64,000 nt of DNA from a phage, in the NCBI GenBank assembly GCA_024790105.1, contig GCA_024790105.1_3053.1; one strand, written 5' to 3'. Within the stretch, counting starts at the first letter, position 1. Each line of letters begins with the position of its first letter. The notes under the pieces are model-generated. The model was given only the letters and a program-made list of their open reading frames with translations. It made no database searches and was not told the origin of the DNA. A program made the position numbers and the translations under genes. Positions 2,677-44,414 of the stretch are shown piece after piece.

Positions 2677-3591
2677 TCAATTAGAAAATAAATTTATCCA
2701 AGATTGTTCTTTAATTAAAAATGGCTCAGAATCATATGCCATTAAACTCTGTGTGATTAGTCCTTTAAAAGGCCCATCAATAAATTCCATGGTAAAATAT
2801 GGAATTTTATTCATTAGCCGTGCATTAGGAGCAGTACACAAAACTCTGCATCCTTTGAATACGCCTTTTTGTAATTTGTATTGCTTGGGATAAAATTCGC
2901 TTAAAATGTTGTTATTTGCCAAAATTTCAAAATGATTCACCAATTTATTTTTAATAGTTTTTGGCGAAAAATAAAGATATTCGAAAAGCTGAGTGTCTGT
3001 CATCATTGCATTCCGATTACGAAAAAACTGTGGACGAGTAATACCACCAATACAACATTTAATATTACAGCAGCAGTGTACAGTGTCAATATGGACACTA
3101 TAAATCTTATCCATATCAGGAGATTTGACAGGCTCATCAATTATATACAAAATTCGCGAAAGCGATAAACCTCTGAACTTGCTTCCTTTATTACCAATAA
3201 AACTGCGCACAGAATCAGTAAATAAACGAAAACGTATATCATCATTAGAATAACGCGAAAATTCCTTTTTAATGTTATTTGCAGAAATTTTAGCGTAAGC
3301 TGAAGTATTAGAAAGAACAATAACTGTTCCACCGTCATACAACCAATTAGCGGCAAAATTAGTTACTGCAATTGATTTACCGGATTGACGTCCACCATCT
3401 ATACGAAGTGTGCAGTACTGTTTAAGTAATTCTTCAAATGGTGGGATATAATCGTTTTTACAAATTTCTTCTACTCTAGCGTCAGAATGGTGTGTAAAAG
3501 CATTCATCAGGGATAGATAAGGACCAGTTAAAAATGTTCTCATTTTATTCTCTCTAAATTTGGGCCATTCCATGGCGCATGAATTGTCCAT
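2677..3591 (-). CDS. P-loop NTPase, terminase-ATPase-like Walker A/B, function unknown
   Basis: Walker A GGRQSGKS and Walker B LYIIDEP; ORF opens with GTG at 3606, first ATG at 3591; Cys cluster HCCCNIKCC. Confidence 0.5.
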
Positions 3592-3623
3592 TTCTGTATT
3601 TACCACTCCAAGTAATTATGAAT

Positions 3624-3653
3624 ATACTATCACAATTCTAGGAGAAAGTAAAC
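3624..3653 (-). promoter_or_regulatory. early-type promoter module upstream of the P-loop ATPase gene
   Basis: minus strand GTTTAC - 18 nt - TAGTAT; 26-nt core tatcacaattctaggagaaagtaaac repeated at 4023..4048. Confidence 0.45.
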
Positions 3654-3655
3654 TG

Positions 3656-3958
3656 TTATTTATCTTTAATTACTTTAGCTGCTTCGATAGCCGCTTGCTG
3701 AAGGTCATCCATAGACATACCGAATTTAGAAGCAAAGTTATCAATTTTCTTTTCGACAGCATTCAAAGGCTTGGCCTGTTTACCTTCATTAGCGCCAGGA
3801 AGAGCGAGAATACGCTCTTTGTCAATATAAAGGCTTACAAGTTTCTTACGGTCTTTATCGGACAAATCATGAAATGAATGGGCCTTTTTATTTATAGCGG
3901 CTTCTAATTTACCTGCACTCACTCGCGCTTCAGTAATAAATTCTTGATATGTTTTCAT
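3656..3958 (-). CDS. internal head protein with capsid targeting sequence (IPII/IPIII-like)
   Basis: 100 aa; N-terminus MKTYQEFITEA matches the T4 internal-protein capsid targeting sequence with a following L-x-E protease site; located next to e. Confidence 0.65.
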   Translation of the reverse strand: MKTYQEFITEARVSAGKLEAAINKKAHSFHDLSDKDRKKLVSLYIDKERILALPGANEGKQAKPLNAVEKKIDNFASKFGMSMDDLQQAAIEAAKVIKDK

Positions 3959-4020
3959 ATGTTTCCTTTAAATGTAAATATTTTAATTGGTAATTGACTG
4001 TTCAAATAACTGTGAATATA

Positions 4021-4049
4021 TATTATCACAATTCTAGGAGAAAGTAAAC
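4021..4049 (-). promoter_or_regulatory. early-type promoter module upstream of the internal-protein gene
   Basis: minus strand GTTTAC - 17 nt - TG-ATAATA; repeat of the module at 3624..3653. Confidence 0.45.
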
Positions 4050-4053
4050 AACT

Positions 4054-5022
<969 letters not shown>

Positions 5023-7556: not shown

Positions 7557-7832
7557 TTATTTCATATTATTGAAATATTCTTCTGCAATTTCGTCGTTAT
7601 CATGATAAACTTTAGAAGACAGTTTAACATAACCTTCAGCAGTGAACATGTTAATCACAACCTTTACAGTATACCACTGACCGTCTTCATTACCCATTAC
7701 TGCGTAAGTTTCAAACATCGGATGGTCAGGACCGATAACTTTAATATCATTCACTGTACGACCAAAATCTTCTGAAACACATTTCATAAAGAAGTTGAAC
7801 AGTTCGCCGTAATTATCCATTTCATTCTCCAA
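7557..7832 (-). CDS. hypothetical protein (e.7 position)
   Basis: 91-aa ORF. Confidence 0.45.
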   Translation of the reverse strand: MENEMDNYGELFNFFMKCVSEDFGRTVNDIKVIGPDHPMFETYAVMGNEDGQWYTVKVVINMFTAEGYVKLSSKVYHDNDEIAEEYFNNMK

Positions 7833-7863
7833 GTTGTTTTCTGTATCAGTAGTTGATAGTTGT

Positions 7864-7893
7864 ATAGTACCATGGAAGAACAGGGATGTAAAC
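7864..7893 (-). promoter_or_regulatory. early-type promoter upstream of ORF 7557..7832
   Basis: minus strand GTTTAC - 18 nt - TACTAT with a conserved upstream A/T-rich TTTCACAAAACTG element. Confidence 0.45.
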
Positions 7894-8022
7894 AGTTTTG
7901 TGAAAAATTTTTTAAAAAGTTTTGGGGAATTCTAGGGCAAGGAGGGGAAATCAAAGGATAGGATAATATATTATAAAGGGTAGAAACTAAATGATGCCTA
8001 GAGAGGCCTGGAAAGGCCTAGA

Positions 8023-8057
8023 TACCAAAAAGCCCCAACCTTTTGGTCGGGGCTAAG
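8023..8057 (-). terminator. rho-independent terminator (copy 1 of an identical 35-bp repeat)
   Basis: minus strand gccccgacc-aaaa-ggttggggc hairpin followed by TTTTTGGTAT, directly after the stop of ORF 8062..8535. Confidence 0.7.
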
Positions 8058-8061
8058 AATG

Positions 8062-8535
8062 TTATTTGATTTGTTTAGCAGACCAAATGCGGTCTTTAAT
8101 AATTTTTTGGATGTCTTCAACATACTCTAGGTCATGAGCATGTGGGTTATCTTTAAAGCTATGAGCACGAGCTAGCTTTTGGCCTTCAGTTTTGATTACT
8201 AAAAGCTCTTTAAGGATAGCTTCATATTTGGAGATAATTCCTTTAACGATATTTTTTTCTTGTGTGACTTTAGGATCTGCTTTAGGAGCAGGTTTACCCG
8301 AAGCCTTTGCAAAAGCAGCGCCAGTAGCAACTAAACTTTTCCAGGCCATACTAACTGCATTTCCCGTAAATCCTTCCGCTTTCATGTCGCGTGCGAACTG
8401 AAATCGCGATTCATTAGAAGCATCTTTGTAAGAATATTTACCCGCTGCAATGGCTGCTTTTGCAACAGCTTGAATTTCGGTGCTAGATGCTTCATTTAAC
8501 ACCGCTTCATTTAAAAATTGAGTATATGATTTCAT
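8062..8535 (-). CDS. capsid-targeting-sequence protein (internal-protein-like, e.8 position)
   Basis: 157 aa; N-terminus MKSYTQFLNEA resembles the internal-protein capsid targeting sequence. Confidence 0.55.
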   Translation of the reverse strand: MKSYTQFLNEAVLNEASSTEIQAVAKAAIAAGKYSYKDASNESRFQFARDMKAEGFTGNAVSMAWKSLVATGAAFAKASGKPAPKADPKVTQEKNIVKGIISKYEAILKELLVIKTEGQKLARAHSFKDNPHAHDLEYVEDIQKIIKDRIWSAKQIK

Positions 8536-8575
8536 CTTATTTCCTGTTTTAATTCGTGGTTTTAATATACTACTA

Positions 8576-8583
8576 TATTTATA
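8576..8583 (-). promoter_or_regulatory. late promoter TATAAATA (minus strand) upstream of ORF 8062..8535
   Basis: plus tatttata = TATAAATA on minus strand about 40 nt upstream of the start codon. Confidence 0.5.
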
Positions 8584-8615
8584 CCAAAAAGCCCCAACCT
8601 TTTGGTCGGGGCTAA
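8581..8615 (-). terminator. rho-independent terminator (copy 2 of identical 35-bp repeat), ends the tRNA/stable-RNA transcription unit
   Basis: exact repeat of 8023..8057. Confidence 0.7.
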
Positions 8616-8664
8616 GCCTTGCGGCAACCTTGTCGGGGTTCCACCTGCTAAGGCAAGTGTTTGT

Positions 8665-8756
8665 ACGAAACGCCGGGATTCGAACCCGGTTATTAAGTAG
8701 TTGACGCTACTCAATATTTTTAAAAGGCCATATCTCGACCATATCCGAACGTTCCG
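8665..8756 (-). ncRNA. tRNA-like stable RNA candidate (possibly equivalent to T4 rnaC/rnaD)
   Basis: canonical T-arm CCGGGTTCGAATCCCGG and a 7-bp acceptor-like pairing CGGAACG/CGTTTCG, but no standard anticodon arm and no CCA. Confidence 0.35.
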
Positions 8757-8929
8757 TCAAAAACGCTACTCGGCTTACGGCAAAGATATTTCCTCGAATC
8801 GATAATTCGGTGCGCCGTTTCTGCTGTGATATAAGGGGACATTAACAAAACATAAAGATTTGTTAATGCCAGTCCTTAAACAGGGAACATCAGTCCGACG
8901 ACTTACCGGTAGCGACCCGGCTTCTTGTT

Positions 8930-9006
<77 letters not shown>

Positions 9007-9009
9007 TAG

Positions 9010-9675
9010 TTAAAATTTCATTTTTCGACCTTTAAACCATCCTTCTGGAATTGGGTCAGTTTTCTTAATACGTTTAGAAACTTTTTCATCTAATGAATGA
9101 ATCCACATCATGCCAAATTGGGAATTCTTTTCACCTTGTTGGTGTTTATTTCTGGCGTGAGATTCTTTCATTTTATTAATAGTTTCAGGAGTATGGGTCT
9201 TACCCAAGAAAGATTTAGTATTTAAAAATTTCTCTCTATACTTAGGATTATCCCAAAGCTGTTTAAACCTTTCTGAACCCATTTTACGATATTTTTCTTT
9301 AAGGTCTGGGTCGTTCTCAAATCTGGTTTTAAAAGCAGCAGCCCCTTTTAAGGAAGCTTCTTTCTTTTTATCCAAATATTCTTTAGTGTTTAAATGGTCC
9401 CAACCACCTTCACCACCTAATTTCAAATTATAAACATCAGGGCGCTTTAAAAACTCTTCAGTCACAATATTCTTTTCTGACTCAAACATAGAGGTTTTAT
9501 CGTCAAAGAACTCTAATATTTCTTTAGAGAAATTTTCTATACCATACTTGTCTTGGGCTCTTTTTAATAATTTACCAGAACCCATATATCCATCATCTAA
9601 ATTTTCGGTAGAATGAGCGCCTATATAGATTTTATTATTAATTTTATTTGTTATTTTATAAGTGTAATGGAACAT
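9010..9675 (-). CDS. segB: GIY-YIG homing endonuclease SegB
   Basis: 221 aa; GIY-YIG module HYTYKITNKINNKIYIGAHST; sits inside the tRNA cluster as segB does in T4. Confidence 0.85.
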   Translation of the reverse strand: MFHYTYKITNKINNKIYIGAHSTENLDDGYMGSGKLLKRAQDKYGIENFSKEILEFFDDKTSMFESEKNIVTEEFLKRPDVYNLKLGGEGGWDHLNTKEYLDKKKEASLKGAAAFKTRFENDPDLKEKYRKMGSERFKQLWDNPKYREKFLNTKSFLGKTHTPETINKMKESHARNKHQQGEKNSQFGMMWIHSLDEKVSKRIKKTDPIPEGWFKGRKMKF

Positions 9676-9716
9676 AAATATCTCCTATTTCTAAGAGTAT
9701 TTATGTTCCCAAAATA

Positions 9717-9788
9717 TGGCCCTGGGTGGAATTGAACCACCATCTGGCGATTATGAGTCGCTTGCTTGAACCTTCCAGCTACAGGGCC
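9717..9788 (-). tRNA. tRNA-Ile/Met (anticodon CAU)
   Basis: acceptor GGCCCTG/CAGGGCC pairs, anticodon loop CTCATAA, T-loop TTCAATT. Confidence 0.8.
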
Positions 9789-9794
9789 TTGATA

Positions 9795-9850
9795 TGCTGA
9801 TTGACGGAATCGAACCGCCGACATCCTCATTACAAGTGAGGTGCTCTACC
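9795..9850 (-). pseudogene. tRNA-Thr (UGU) remnant, 5' acceptor strand and D-stem missing
   Basis: anticodon arm CCTCA-CTTGTAA-TGAGG, T-arm and 3' acceptor AATCAGC present, but no complementary GCTGATT upstream; that position is occupied by the 3' end of the HNH ORF. Confidence 0.5.
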
Positions 9851-10307
9851 ACGCTTCCGTTATTTTGTTTTTATATGCTCTATTCCTTGATTTATACGTA
9901 TCAAGTTGAGAGTCACAATTGGAACAAACAAATCTCAGATTTTCTAATCTATGGTCATTGTTTATTCCATTAATATGATCGAGAATTAAAGGCATTGGTT
10001 TGCCATTCCATACTGCTTCTATTCCACAGATAGAGCACTCATATGGTAATATTTTGTCTTCTATAAGTCTTTTTCTAAGATGGCTTCTGCCGTAAGAAGA
10101 ATTTTCAACCATTACATCACTAAGATTATATCTGTTGGTTTTTGGACCAGTCTTAAGTCCTTTATTCCAGATTTTGCAACCTTTTTGAGCTCCGGCTCCC
10201 TTCCCTCTCACATATTCAGCTTTATTTGGATTAAGTTTGCAATATTTTTCATGCACACTTTTTCCGCCAGCTTGTTTAAATTCTTTATTACAAAATTGAC
10301 AATTCAT
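9846..10307 (-). CDS. HNH homing endonuclease
   Basis: motif LDHINGINNDHRLENLRFVCSNCDSQ plus Cys pairs; start set at internal Met so it clears the tRNA-Pro region (ORF is open up to 10367). Confidence 0.75.
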   Translation of the reverse strand: MNCQFCNKEFKQAGGKSVHEKYCKLNPNKAEYVRGKGAGAQKGCKIWNKGLKTGPKTNRYNLSDVMVENSSYGRSHLRKRLIEDKILPYECSICGIEAVWNGKPMPLILDHINGINNDHRLENLRFVCSNCDSQLDTYKSRNRAYKNKITEAW

Positions 10308-10323
10308 TATCTTCTCATTTAAT

Positions 10324-10400
10324 TGGGGTGACCGATGGGATTTGAACCTACGACATTCTGCTCCCAAAGCAGACGCTCTACCAAACTGAGCTACACGGAG
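10324..10400 (-). pseudogene. tRNA-Pro (UGG)-like gene whose 3' acceptor strand cannot pair
   Basis: canonical D-arm TAGCTCAGTTTGGTAGAGC and anticodon arm TCTGC-TTTGGGA-GCAGA, but 5' CTCCGTG has no complement; 3' end reads CATCGGTCACCCCA. Confidence 0.5.
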
Positions 10401-10412
10401 TAAATTAAATTT

Positions 10413-10484
<72 letters not shown>

Positions 10485-10490
10485 AAACTT

Positions 10491-10577
10491 TGGTACGAGA
10501 AGTGGGACTCGAACCCACAAGGAAATCATTCCGCAGCATTTTAAGTGCTGTGCCTTTACCAATTTGACCATTCTCGC
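10491..10577 (-). tRNA. tRNA-Leu (anticodon UAA), long variable arm, CCA encoded
   Basis: acceptor GCGAGAA/TTCTCGT, anticodon loop CTTAAAA, long extra arm, T-arm GGGTTCGAGTCCC. Confidence 0.85.
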
Positions 10578-10583
10578 GTTATA

Positions 10584-11216
10584 TTATTTATTACGTGAAA
10601 AAGACTGTTCTATCAATTCTGGACACTTTCGTTCTATCCATTTTCTAGCTTTTTGTGGGCTTATACCTATTATTTTAGCAGCTTTACTAACCCATCCAAA
10701 TTTAGAATAATCGATTTTAACTAATTCTTCGTAAATTTCATCAGTTAAAATCTTTTCATTAATATTTACCAGTAAATGATATAATTTGTTATCATTAGCA
10801 ATTTTAATGAATCTTTTATAGTTTCCGCCTTTACTTAAACCTAATGAAGTAATTGCAGATGATATAGTAGCCGAATTTAATAATGCGTTTAAAATTTCTT
10901 CATCACTAACATTATAACGCTTTTTATTATTTTTAATATTTTTACCAGCAAAAGTATCAGTTTGCGAGTGACAGTTTGGACATAATAATCTTAAATTTGA
11001 TTTAAGATGATTTTTGTTATTTCCATCAATATGGTCTAATTGCAGAACAATATGCTTATTTTGCCATTTTGAAATTTTACAAATTGCACACTCATATGGA
11101 AAAATATTTTCTTTTATTATTTTGTCTTTCAGCTTTCCTGTGCTAAAATTTGGGTGTTTTCCTTCAAAAATTTCAGCTAATTTAGTATCCATAATATGAT
11201 TCCCAATTATTAACAA
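10584..11216 (-). CDS. HNH homing endonuclease (paralog of 9846..10307)
   Basis: motif LDHIDGNNKNHLKSNLRLLCPNCHSQ; stop codon lies 6 nt upstream of the tRNA-Leu 5' end. Confidence 0.75.
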   Translation of the reverse strand: MLIIGNHIMDTKLAEIFEGKHPNFSTGKLKDKIIKENIFPYECAICKISKWQNKHIVLQLDHIDGNNKNHLKSNLRLLCPNCHSQTDTFAGKNIKNNKKRYNVSDEEILNALLNSATISSAITSLGLSKGGNYKRFIKIANDNKLYHLLVNINEKILTDEIYEELVKIDYSKFGWVSKAAKIIGISPQKARKWIERKCPELIEQSFSRNK

Positions 11217-12183: not shown

Positions 12184-12211
12184 TTTATTCTCCTCGGTAG
12201 TTGATAGGGTA

Positions 12212-12241
12212 ATAGTATCACAACTAAAACCCTATGTAAAC
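12212..12241 (-). promoter_or_regulatory. early-type promoter module
   Basis: minus strand GTTTAC - 18 nt - TACTAT with conserved upstream TTTCACAAAGTTG element. Confidence 0.45.
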
Positions 12242-12253
12242 AACTTTGTGAAA

Positions 12254-12511
12254 TTATTTTAAATCTTCTAATCGTTTCTTCATCTTAGAACCATTTTTAG
12301 CAATTTCTCCTGCATCGGAGCATAATGCTAAAAGTGCTTTAACTTTAGTTTGGTCTCCTTTAAAAGATGAAGGATCGACTGCAGCAGCAAGTTCTTTAAT
12401 ACGAGAGAAAAGACGCTCAGCTTCAGCTAAAGCCATTCCAAGCTTTACTTCCATGCCATGAGAAGATTCAGTAATAGTAGTTTTTGTAGCAAACTCTTTG
12501 AAAGTTTTCAT
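12254..12511 (-). CDS. internal head protein with capsid targeting sequence (ipI position)
   Basis: 85 aa; N-terminus MKTFKEFATK resembles the capsid targeting sequence; adjacent to 57B as ipI is in T4. Confidence 0.6.
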   Translation of the reverse strand: MKTFKEFATKTTITESSHGMEVKLGMALAEAERLFSRIKELAAAVDPSSFKGDQTKVKALLALCSDAGEIAKNGSKMKKRLEDLK

Positions 12512-12541
12512 TTTATTTTCCTAATTAATTTTGATGAGGTA

Positions 12542-12571
12542 ATAGTATCACTACCTCATCAGTATGTAAAC
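12542..12571 (-). promoter_or_regulatory. early-type promoter module upstream of the ipI-position gene
   Basis: 31 nt identical to the module at 12212..12241. Confidence 0.45.
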
Positions 12572-12583
12572 AACTTTGTGAAA

Positions 12584-13280
<697 letters not shown>

Positions 13281-44175: not shown

Positions 44176-44414
44176 TGGAAGGTTTAATTGAAGCTATTAA
44201 ATCAAACGACCTCGTAGCCGCTCGTAAATTATTTGCTGAAGCCATGGCTGCAAGAACGATTGATTTAATTAAAGAAGAAAAAATCGCTATCGCTCGTAAT
44301 TTCTTAATCGAAGGTGAAGAACCTGATGACGAGGATGATGACGAAGACGAAGATGGTGATGATAAAAAAGACAAAGGCTCTGATGAAGATGACGAAGACG
44401 AGGATGATGAATAA
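44175..44414 (+). CDS. 67: gp67 prohead core protein (acidic C-terminus)
   Basis: 79 aa, position between 20 and 68, poly-D/E tail. Confidence 0.85.

What the first reader, a model, noticed from the sequence alone, without database searches (positions are those of the whole stretch)
8023..8615. CTS-protein gene at 8062..8535 is bracketed by two identical 35-bp terminator repeats and carries its own late promoter
The sequence ataccaaaaagccccaaccttttggtcggggctaag occurs at 8023..8057 and 8581..8615. On the coding (minus) strand each forms a 9-bp hairpin followed by TTTTTGGTAT. Between them lie the gene and a TATAAATA late promoter at 8576..8583. This looks like a self-contained expression cassette, consistent with cassette exchange of internal-protein genes by recombination between flanking repeats.
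Basis: seen in the sequence. Interest (0 to 1): 0.45.

Follow-up and report, generated by a model that had tools for sequence, protein, structure and literature searches.

The report
Terminator-flanked internal-protein gene cassette, T4-like phage
In this T4-like phage a small gene for a probable capsid-packaged, injected protein sits behind its own late promoter between two identical copies of a transcription terminator; T4 and T2 have one terminator copy and no gene at this spot, so it is a removable gene cassette of a kind already known in these phages.

Summary
On the minus strand each copy is a 10-bp hairpin followed by UUUUUGG. The repeats bracket a 157-aa ORF (8062-8535, minus) that starts MKSYTQFLNE|A. 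A TATAAATA box at 8576-8583 overlaps the end of the upstream copy.

The window is a Tequatrovirus. The locus lies between the tRNA/rnaD/rnaC unit and gene e.8. T4 and T2 have one copy of the hairpin here and no gene: T4 equals the window minus 559 bp.

Junction probes against 50,697 phage records find all four combinations of this gene and a second CTS gene of 187 aa:
- empty: 78 records
- 157-aa gene only: 277
- 187-aa gene only: at most 37
- both genes: 116

Every junction falls at a hairpin. In Dhakavirus-like relatives an equivalent repeated hairpin plus TATAAATA bounds shuffled modules, and different cargo follows an identical hairpin-promoter-CTS segment.

The cassette reading is therefore supported. 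The hairpin occurs only at this locus, and within Tequatrovirus the cargo between the repeats is always the same gene family. The mechanism matches known PeSL and IP-locus modular shuffling. The protein's function is unknown. Interest is moderate.

The parts
8581..8616 (-). Upstream copy of the 36-bp repeat. It is the intrinsic terminator hairpin (stem-loop 8590-8613) that follows the tRNA-Arg/rnaD/rnaC unit. Its last three bases (8581-8583) are the first three of the late promoter box.
   Evidence: The same hairpin is present as the only copy in T4, 48 nt downstream of annotated rnaC.
8576..8583 (-). TATAAATA, the T4-type late promoter box, 40 nt upstream of the ATG.
   Evidence: The hairpin-TATAAATA fusion is conserved upstream of this gene in Tequatrovirus, Dhakavirus-like and one Mosigvirus relative.
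8540..8545 (-). Shine-Dalgarno AGGAAA, ending 4 nt before the ATG.
   Evidence: Read directly from the sequence.
8062..8535 (-). Gene for a 157-aa protein with an N-terminal capsid-targeting-like sequence, MKSYTQFLNE|AVLNE|A. It belongs to PHROG 2280 (unknown function).
   Evidence: The AF2 model is all-helical with a disordered N-terminus.
8491..8535 (-). Codons 1-15: the CTS-like leader with two L-x-E|A motifs that fit the gp21 prohead-protease site.
   Evidence: N-terminal comparison with T4 IPI, IPII and IPIII and with the window's two other CTS genes. The cleavage rule comes from established T4 knowledge, not from a test here.
8022..8057 (-). Downstream copy of the 36-bp repeat (stem-loop 8031-8054). 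It is the terminator of the cassette transcript and starts 4 nt after the stop codon.
7864..7892 (-). Context: early-type promoter (TTTACA-17-TACTAT with TG) for e.8, about 130 nt downstream of the cassette.
   Evidence: It belongs to a repeated early-promoter family, D1.
7557..7820 (-). Context: e.8 homologue, the downstream neighbour.
   Evidence: 257/264 nt identical to T4 e.8; annotation in relatives.
8664..8925 (-). Context: rnaC (8664-8802) and rnaD (8809-8925), the stable RNAs at the end of the tRNA cluster. tRNA-Arg follows at 8930-9006.
   Evidence: 138/139 and 101/115 nt identical to T4 rnaC and rnaD.

Best explanation
The locus is a late-expressed gene module for a probable internal (capsid-packaged, injected) protein. 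It sits immediately after the terminator of the tRNA/rnaD/rnaC transcription unit and ends in a second copy of that terminator.

Proposed working:
1. The upstream hairpin stops early and middle transcripts coming from the tRNA cluster.
2. The TATAAATA box fused to its U-tail starts a late transcript. The protein is therefore made when proheads assemble.
3. The MKSYTQFLNE leader targets the protein to the scaffolding core and is removed by the prohead protease at L-x-E|A.
4. The downstream hairpin ends the roughly 0.55-kb transcript before the early promoter of e.8.

Because the two terminators are 36-bp direct repeats 559 bp apart, homologous or slipped recombination between them deletes the module and leaves one, possibly chimeric, hairpin. 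That is the T4/T2 state. The reverse reaction, or ordinary recombination in mixed infection, installs the module. The hairpins, together with the promoter-leader-CTS segment, act as the joints at which neighbouring modules (the 187-aa CTS gene; in other genera a 205-aa CTS gene and a 184-aa membrane protein gene) are added, lost, swapped or reordered.

Shown here: the anatomy, its conservation, the exact presence/absence breakpoints, and the population frequencies of all four states. Inferred: termination, late transcription, packaging and injection, and that recombination at the repeats (not merely next to them) created the states.
For: Anatomy.

Empty site: T4 has a single hairpin whose outer flanks equal the window's outer flanks, so T4 equals the window minus 559 bp.

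Junction probes in 50,697 phage records:
- empty: 78 records, including T4, T2, T2L, RB55 and RB59
- 157-aa gene only: 277
- 187-aa gene only: at most 37 (RB14 and others)
- both genes: 116
Gene counts agree with these figures: 403 records carry the 157-aa gene and 165 the 187-aa gene, always as one copy.

Chimeric hairpin: RB14's single hairpin has the 5' flank of the upstream copy and the 3' tail (TTTTTAGTTTGAATCAC) of the middle copy seen in two-gene phages. This is the product expected from a crossover between hairpins.

Variants shared between copies: the stem variant AGCC occurs in the upstream copy in some genomes, the downstream copy in others and both in L027. Copies within a genome also resemble each other more than they resemble the copies of another genus. 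Both points suggest exchange between copies.

Dhakavirus-like loci: a repeated hairpin GGCCCTTCCGAAAGGTTGGGCC plus TATAAATA bounds modules whose order differs between L011 and L012. About 100 nt of hairpin-promoter-leader-CTS are identical, and then the 205-aa and 157-aa cargos diverge abruptly.

Other junction: in L029 the hairpin is joined to Gaprivervirus-like DNA.

Ancestry: orthologues of 76-94% identity sit at the same locus in several genera, so the gene is old here and the T4/T2 state is most simply a loss.

Literature:
- An ORF flanked by two PeSLs in RB49 against a single PeSL in phi1, plus detected mini-circles, is the same topology (PMC2839356).
- T4 readily deletes and amplifies DNA through 6-10-bp microhomologies (PMC9391042).
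- T4 Ip1, Ip2 and Ip3 carry a CTS and each blocks a distinct GmrSD enzyme (PMC12373910).

The window's other two CTS genes are also bracketed by direct repeats of regulatory DNA.
Against: - No transcript, proteome or recombination data exist for this locus.
- The hairpin occurs only at this locus in whole genomes, so there is no sign that the module moves elsewhere.
- Within Tequatrovirus no foreign cargo was found between the two copies.
- The spread of presence and absence among phages needs only homologous recombination in the well-conserved flanks (e.8, rnaC), not the repeats.
- T4's single copy (loop GAAA, tail GGTAT) fits either a crossover product or an unduplicated ancestor.
- The perfect identity of the two copies in this window differs from an L028-type relative by a single base, so it may be one point mutation and not gene conversion.
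- Terminator-TATAAATA fusions with other hairpins occur elsewhere in the window, so that part of the design is ordinary.
- The protein has no detectable similarity to the mature parts of IPI, IPII or IPIII, and no fold match.
Confidence: 0.72

Rival explanations
1. The two hairpins are only functional terminators that happen to be similar. One ends the tRNA/rnaC unit and the other ends the inserted late gene. They are kept alike by selection for terminator strength or by an old duplication, and they play no part in recombination. Presence or absence of the gene spreads purely through homologous recombination in the conserved flanking genes during mixed infections, possibly helped by co-conversion from the nearby segB homing endonuclease.
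For: - The flanks are 93-98% identical between T4 and the window.
- segB lies about 400 bp upstream (9010-9675, GIY-YIG) and is known to drive preferential inheritance of the tRNA region (PMC2330249, title and abstract).
- The hairpin is locus-specific.
- In Dhakavirus-like phages the 157/154-aa gene ends in a shorter hairpin of its own, AGCCCCGTCTGGGGCT, so a private terminator may be ancestral.
Against: - The indel boundaries coincide with the repeat to the base in T4 and T2.
- RB14 carries a hairpin with mixed flanks.
- Stem variants are shared between upstream and downstream copies across genomes.
- 36 bp of perfect homology 559 bp apart is far more than the 6-10 bp that T4 is shown to use for deletions.
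- segB presence does not track the cassette: T4 is segB+ and empty, the window is segB+ and filled, and RB14 is segB- with the 187-aa gene only.
Confidence: 0.2
2. The 559-bp unit is an autonomous mobile element, and the 36-bp repeat is its target-site duplication or terminal repeat.
For: Direct repeats flank a unit that is present or absent, and the empty site keeps exactly one copy.
Against: - The only ORF inside is the 157-aa CTS protein, with no Pfam, PADLOC or fold match to any recombinase or nuclease.
- 36 bp is far longer than usual target duplications.
- The repeat is a functional terminator that exists at the empty site.
- There is one copy per genome and a single locus in 512 records.
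Confidence: 0.03
3. The ORF is not an internal protein. The MKSY..F..E start is coincidental, and the gene is an ordinary late accessory gene.
For: There is no similarity to the mature parts of IPI, IPII or IPIII. All database names are 'hypothetical protein'. No virion proteomics were found.
Against: - The motif M-K-(S/T)-(Y/F)-x-(E/Q)-F followed by L/I-x-E|A is shared with T4 IPI, IPII and IPIII and with every alternative cargo at this locus (187, 205, 153 and 154 aa), although the mature parts are unrelated.
- The N-terminus is predicted to be disordered.
- The gene has a late promoter.
- Known IPs are defined by just this leader and by otherwise unrelated sequences (PMC3012670; PMC12373910).
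Confidence: 0.12

Closest known systems
PeSL (promoter-early stem-loop) cassettes of T4-type phages (Arbiol et al. 2010, PMC2839356; Comeau et al. 2014, PMC4122927)
   Same: - Short regulatory repeats containing a terminator stem-loop flank small non-essential ORFs.
- One phage has the ORF between two repeats while a close relative has a single repeat.
- The proposed and partly demonstrated mechanism is recombination between the repeats, giving deletion, insertion, module reordering and small circles of 0.4-1.5 kb.
   Different: - The repeat here holds only the terminator, with no sigma-70-like early promoter.
- The upstream copy is fused to a late TATAAATA box instead.
- There are only two copies per genome, at one locus, where PeSLs are scattered through hyperplastic regions in many copies.
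- No mini-circles have been looked for.
Polymorphic internal-protein loci of T-even phages (Repoila et al. 1994, as described in PMC2839356, PMC4122927, PMC3012670 and PMC12373910; the original paper is not held)
   Same: Unrelated small genes share only the N-terminal capsid-targeting sequence. They vary in number, order and identity between close relatives and are associated with repeated regulatory sequences. The window's own ipII-like and ipI-like genes show this pattern: 32-nt and 69-nt early-promoter repeats bracket them.
   Different: - The papers I could read speak of two IP loci (57B-ipI and denV-ipII-ipIII-e). One states that IP genes are absent elsewhere in T-even genomes.
- This locus, rnaC-e.8, is a different site that is empty in T4 and T2.
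- Its repeats are a G+C-rich intrinsic terminator and not AT-rich early-promoter elements.
T4 internal proteins IPI*, IPII, IPIII
   Same: An N-terminal MK(T/S)(Y/F)x(E/Q)F leader ending in L/I-x-E|A, small size, late expression signal, dispensability and patchy distribution.
   Different: The mature part shows no sequence or fold similarity. The function is unknown, whereas Ip1, Ip2 and Ip3 each inhibit a specific GmrSD type IV restriction enzyme (PMC12373910).
Microhomology-mediated deletion and amplification in T4 (Srikant et al. 2022, PMC9391042)
   Same: Direct repeats flanking accessory genes, including ipIII, are the endpoints of spontaneous deletions.
   Different: Those events used 6-10-bp chance homologies. 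Here the homology is a conserved 36-bp functional element.

Membership tests
Rho-independent (intrinsic) terminator | G+C-rich stem-loop immediately followed by a U-run on the transcribed strand | tested here: met
   The stem has 10 bp (7 G-C pairs), the loop is AAAA and the tail is UUUUUGG. MFE is -21.7 and -24.1 kcal/mol, z = -3.1 and -2.6.
Rho-independent (intrinsic) terminator | Transcripts actually end there | not testable with these tools
   This needs Term-seq or 3' RACE.
T4 late promoter | TATAAATA box at about -10, a short distance upstream of a late gene | tested here: met
   An exact TATAAATA lies at 8576-8583 (minus), 40 nt before the ATG. The box is conserved in relatives, and the window is enriched for it (24 observed against 10.8 expected).
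T4 late promoter | gp55/gp33/gp45-dependent late initiation | not testable with these tools
   This needs 5' end mapping over an infection time course.
T-even internal protein (IP) | N-terminal capsid-targeting sequence resembling MKTYQEFIAE | tested here: met
   The protein starts MKSYTQFLNE. The motif is shared with T4 IPI, IPII and IPIII and with all alternative cargos at this locus.
T-even internal protein (IP) | Prohead-protease (gp21) site L/I-x-E followed by a small residue at the end of the leader | tested here: met
   LNE|A occurs at residues 8-11 and again at 13-16. The site rule is taken from established T4 knowledge.
T-even internal protein (IP) | Physically packaged in the head and injected with the DNA | not testable with these tools
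   No proteomic report was found.
T-even internal protein (IP) | Located in one of the two described IP loci | tested here: not met
   The gene lies between rnaC and e.8. The ipI-like gene is at 12254-12511 and the ipII-like gene at 3656-3958 in the same window.
PeSL | Composite of a strong sigma-70-like early promoter plus a stem-loop within the repeated unit | tested here: not met
   The 36-bp repeat holds only the stem-loop and U-tail. The nearest early-type promoter is about 130 nt downstream of one copy only.
PeSL | Many copies dispersed through hyperplastic regions of the genome | tested here: not met
   There are two copies in the 64-kb window at up to 3 mismatches, and two matches at one locus per whole IMG/VR genome.
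PeSL | ORF flanked by two copies in one phage and replaced by a single copy in a close relative | tested here: met
   This holds for the window against T4 and T2.
PeSL | Excised mini-circles with one chimeric repeat | not testable with these tools
   This needs inverse PCR on infected cells or virion DNA.
Transposon or homing-endonuclease cassette | Encodes its own recombinase or nuclease | tested here: not met
   The single ORF has no Pfam, PADLOC, PDB or BFVD match to such enzymes.

The most novel reading that the evidence does not exclude
rnaC-e.8 is a third internal-protein locus of T-even phages that has gone unrecognised. It was missed because the reference phages T4 and T2 both carry the empty site. 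It holds at least three unrelated CTS proteins (157, 187 and 205 aa) of unknown function, plausibly new injected anti-defence factors such as inhibitors of further type IV restriction variants. Its modules are joined by a 'stem-loop plus late promoter' element that acts as a late-gene counterpart of PeSLs and can excise as a 559-bp circle.
Probability: 0.35. Interest if true: 0.6.

Novelty: new variant of a known kind. Interest (0 to 1): 0.42.

Why it matters
Injected internal proteins are the first phage products to meet host defences. All three T4 internal proteins are now known to block distinct GmrSD restriction enzymes.

A further cassette site carries uncharacterised CTS proteins in most sequenced Tequatrovirus genomes with this locus (roughly 430 of about 510 classified by junction probes) but is empty in T4 and T2. 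It offers ready candidates for new anti-defence functions and a natural, well-bounded insertion point for engineering.

The exact one-repeat versus two-repeat polymorphism also gives a clean, testable case of how regulatory repeats shape accessory-gene turnover in large lytic phages. It would extend the PeSL idea from early promoters to a terminator/late-promoter joint.

Tried and rejected
- **Protein function.** Pfam gave only sub-threshold noise and PADLOC gave nothing. The PHROG hit is 2280, 'unknown function'. The large protein search returned only 'hypothetical protein' names. An AlphaFold2 model (pLDDT 73, all-helical, two parts joined by a PAPKADPK linker) matched nothing informative in PDB or BFVD beyond its own family.
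- **Hairpin at other loci or with other cargo.** An IMG/VR scan found it only at this locus, two matches per genome. A metagenome scan for hairpin plus TATAAATA found eight contigs, all at the same locus and with the same gene family. I therefore dropped the idea of a roaming cassette.
- **Rfam.** The search found only tRNAs in 7800-11000 and no family for the hairpin, rnaC or rnaD.
- **Perfect identity of the two copies as evidence of recent gene conversion.** Among 11 distinct gene-only loci the window is the only one with 0 differences. However, it is a single base away from an L028-type relative, so I do not claim conversion.
- **First empty-site count.** A 195-bp probe was confounded because the tool joined split hits. 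I repeated it with 99-100-bp junction probes.
- **Literature.** Repoila et al. 1994 and Miller et al. 2003 are not held. What I say about them is second-hand from papers that cite them. Searches for the ORF names RB32ORF133c, RB69ORF148c and RB69ORF149c found nothing.

Full report
**1. What is in the sequence**

The 36-nt string ATACCAAAAAGCCCCAACCTTTTGGTCGGGGCTAAG occurs exactly twice in the 64-kb window, at 8022-8057 and 8581-8616. No third copy appears with up to three mismatches, and none appeared in shuffled controls.

On the minus strand each copy reads CTTAGCCCCGACCAAAAGGTTGGGGCTTTTTGGTAT. This is a 10-bp stem (7 G-C pairs, one G-U) with an AAAA loop, followed by UUUUUGG. The MFE is -21.7 and -24.1 kcal/mol in a 61-nt context. 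On the plus strand the stem has an A-C mismatch and no T-run follows, so the element is directional. These are the two strongest terminator-like sites in the first 16 kb.

Between the copies lies one ORF, 8062-8535 on the minus strand, encoding 157 aa that begin MKSYTQFLNEAVLNEA. It is preceded by an AGGAAA ribosome-binding site and, 40 nt upstream of the ATG, by TATAAATA at 8576-8583. The first three bases of that box are the last three of the upstream repeat. The downstream copy continues GGTAT|CTAGG and carries no such box.

**2. Where this is**

The window is a Tequatrovirus; the best match is Shigella phage SfPhi01 at 97.9%. The gene order on the minus strand is segB, tRNA-Arg, rnaD, rnaC, [hairpin, gene, hairpin], e.8, e.6. 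rnaC maps to 8664-8802 and rnaD to 8809-8925. The upstream hairpin is therefore the terminator that follows the tRNA and stable-RNA unit. About 130 nt beyond the downstream hairpin lies an early-type promoter for e.8, at 7892-7864.

**3. The empty site**

T4 has no gene between rnaC and e.8 and carries a single copy of the hairpin. T4's left flank maps to window 7824-8021 and its right flank to 8619-8815. T4 therefore equals the window minus 559 bp, which is the gene plus one repeat.

**4. Population survey**

The rnaC/rnaD flank is present in 764 of 50,697 phage records. The 157-aa gene is present in 403 records, and a second CTS gene of 187 aa (MKTYAEFLTEA...) in 165. Each occurs once per genome.

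Junction probes of 99-100 bp, scored at 80% coverage or more, separate four states:

| State | Junction probed | Records |
|---|---|---|
| Empty (T4, T2, T2L, RB55, RB59 and others) | trailer-hairpin-e.8 flank | 78 |
| 157-aa gene only | gene end-hairpin-e.8 flank | 277 |
| 187-aa gene only (RB14, CT01 and others) | trailer-hairpin-187 leader | at most 37 |
| Both genes | gene end-hairpin-187 leader | 116 |

Both modules are thus present or absent independently, and every junction falls at a hairpin. RB14's single hairpin combines the 5' flank of the upstream copy with the 3' tail of the middle copy of two-gene phages. That is the product expected from a crossover between hairpins. The 187-aa module ends in a different hairpin, but one that shares GGGCTTTTTGGTAT with the repeat.

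**5. Variation within the repeat**

I compared 11 distinct loci that carry only the 157-aa gene.
- The upstream copy usually has loop GAAA and tail AGTAT or GGTAT.
- The downstream copy has loop AAAA or GAAA and tail GGTAT.
- A stem variant, AGCC, is found in the upstream copy in some genomes, the downstream copy in others and both in one.

This pattern suggests exchange between copies. The window is the only one of the 11 with identical copies. It differs from an L028-type relative by one base, so I do not insist on gene conversion.

**6. More distant relatives**

Orthologues of the 157-aa protein (153-157 aa, 76-94% identity) sit at the same locus in Mosigvirus-, Dhakavirus- and Gaprivervirus-like genomes. 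tblastn finds the family in 512 records, one copy each. The gene is therefore old at this site, and the T4/T2 state is most simply a loss.

In Dhakavirus-like loci a different but related hairpin, GGCCCTTCCGAAAGGTTGGGCC, is itself repeated. It is fused to TATAAATA and bounds modules whose order differs:
- L011 and L013: hairpin-PL-184-aa membrane protein gene, then hairpin-PL-205-aa CTS gene.
- L012: hairpin-PL-157-aa CTS gene, then the 184-aa gene, then hairpin.

Between L011 and L012 about 100 nt of hairpin, promoter, leader and the first roughly 15 codons are virtually identical. After that the 205-aa and 157-aa cargos diverge to random-level identity. The homology used at the 5' side therefore includes the promoter and the CTS, as was proposed long ago for IP genes.

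A metagenomic contig, L029, joins the second hairpin to Gaprivervirus-like DNA.

**7. Limits on the cassette idea**

- The hairpin occurs only at this locus in whole genomes and metagenome hits.
- Within Tequatrovirus the cargo between the two copies is always this gene family.
- The gene is never duplicated.
- Terminator-TATAAATA fusions with other hairpins occur elsewhere in the window. The unusual feature is therefore the duplication, not the fusion.

**8. The protein**

The protein belongs to PHROG 2280, of unknown function. It has no Pfam or PADLOC match. Apart from the leader it has no similarity to IPI, IPII or IPIII. All database names are 'hypothetical protein'.

The AlphaFold2 model (pLDDT 73) has a disordered leader, a small helical domain at residues 18-75, a PAPKADPK linker and a long helical hairpin. 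It has no informative fold match.

The leader fits the capsid-targeting sequence and the L/I-x-E cleavage rule of T4 internal proteins (PMC3012670). In the closest relative, SfPhi01, the gene is truncated to 111 aa, which is consistent with dispensability.

**9. Comparison with what is known**

The topology is the one described for PeSLs. An ORF sits between two PeSLs in RB49 and is replaced by a single PeSL in phi1, with mini-circles detected (PMC2839356). [quoted passage not shown] A 2025 study likewise speaks of two loci, and it shows that Ip1, Ip2 and Ip3 each inhibit a distinct GmrSD enzyme (PMC12373910). T4 deletes accessory genes, including ipIII, through 6-10-bp microhomologies (PMC9391042).

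In this window the ipII-like and ipI-like genes are each bracketed by early-promoter repeats of 32 nt and 69 nt, which is the classic pattern.

The present locus differs in three ways. The repeat is a G+C-rich intrinsic terminator without an early promoter. The upstream copy is fused to a late promoter. The site, rnaC-e.8, is not one of the two described IP loci and is empty in T4 and T2.

**10. Verdict**

This is a locus-bound, terminator-delimited late gene module for a probable internal protein. It is gained and lost at its flanking repeats, and it is a new variant of a known kind of modular shuffling. Transcription, packaging, function and the recombination events themselves remain to be shown.

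Noticed in passing
window 3622-3653 and 4018-4049, flanking 3656-3958 (-): The ipII homologue (100 aa, MKTYQEFITEA) is bracketed by a 32-nt direct repeat (97% identity). On the minus strand the repeat is an early-type promoter (GTTTAC...TAGTAT). The window has no ipIII; ipII lies directly next to lysozyme gene e (4054-4548).
   Followed up: partly
window 12201-12269 and 12531-12599, flanking 12254-12511 (-); third copy at 7853-7921: An 85-aa ipI-like CTS gene (MKTFKEFATKTT) is bracketed by a 69-nt direct repeat (86% identity). The repeat holds an early-type promoter plus the last codons (..DLK*) of both the ip gene and the upstream 57B-like gene. A 61% copy is the e.8 promoter just downstream of the cassette studied here.
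   Followed up: partly
window 2677-3606 (-): A 309-aa ORF with no Pfam match sits downstream of ipII, where T4 has denV.
   Followed up: no
window 9010-11216 (-): The tRNA cluster is interrupted by three endonuclease-like ORFs: a GIY-YIG segB-like ORF at 9010-9675, an HNH ORF at 9846-10367, and a 210-aa ORF with an HNH-like CxxC/H-N motif at 10584-11216. Two partial tRNA-like Rfam matches (9803-9855 and 10333-10395) overlap the ends of the HNH ORF. ARAGORN calls only four tRNAs here, against eight in T4.
   Followed up: no
L001 (Shigella phage SfPhi01, LC465543) 1300-1635: In the closest relative the 157-aa gene is truncated to 111 aa, which looks like a pseudogenised cassette.
   Followed up: no
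L029 (metagenome contig UMIC01010870) 380-440: The second hairpin is followed by Gaprivervirus-like (VR25/VR26) DNA with its own early promoter, not by the e.8 region. This is an inter-genus mosaic junction exactly at the end of the hairpin's T-run. The cargo ORF is also broken there (107 aa).
   Followed up: partly
L010 (IMG/VR 2974735671) about 2000-2100 of the slice used: There is a remnant of the 184-aa membrane-protein gene: the start ATGAAACTTTTAAAATA is fused to the gene's 3' end. This is an internal deletion inside a neighbouring module of the same locus.
   Followed up: no
window 26133, 41945, 47950 (+): Other late promoters (TATAAATA) are also fused directly to the U-tail of a strong hairpin. 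Each hairpin has a different sequence and none is repeated.
   Followed up: partly
window 44319-44410: A short imperfect tandem of GAT/GAA-rich 29-mers, which is an acidic low-complexity coding stretch.
   Followed up: no
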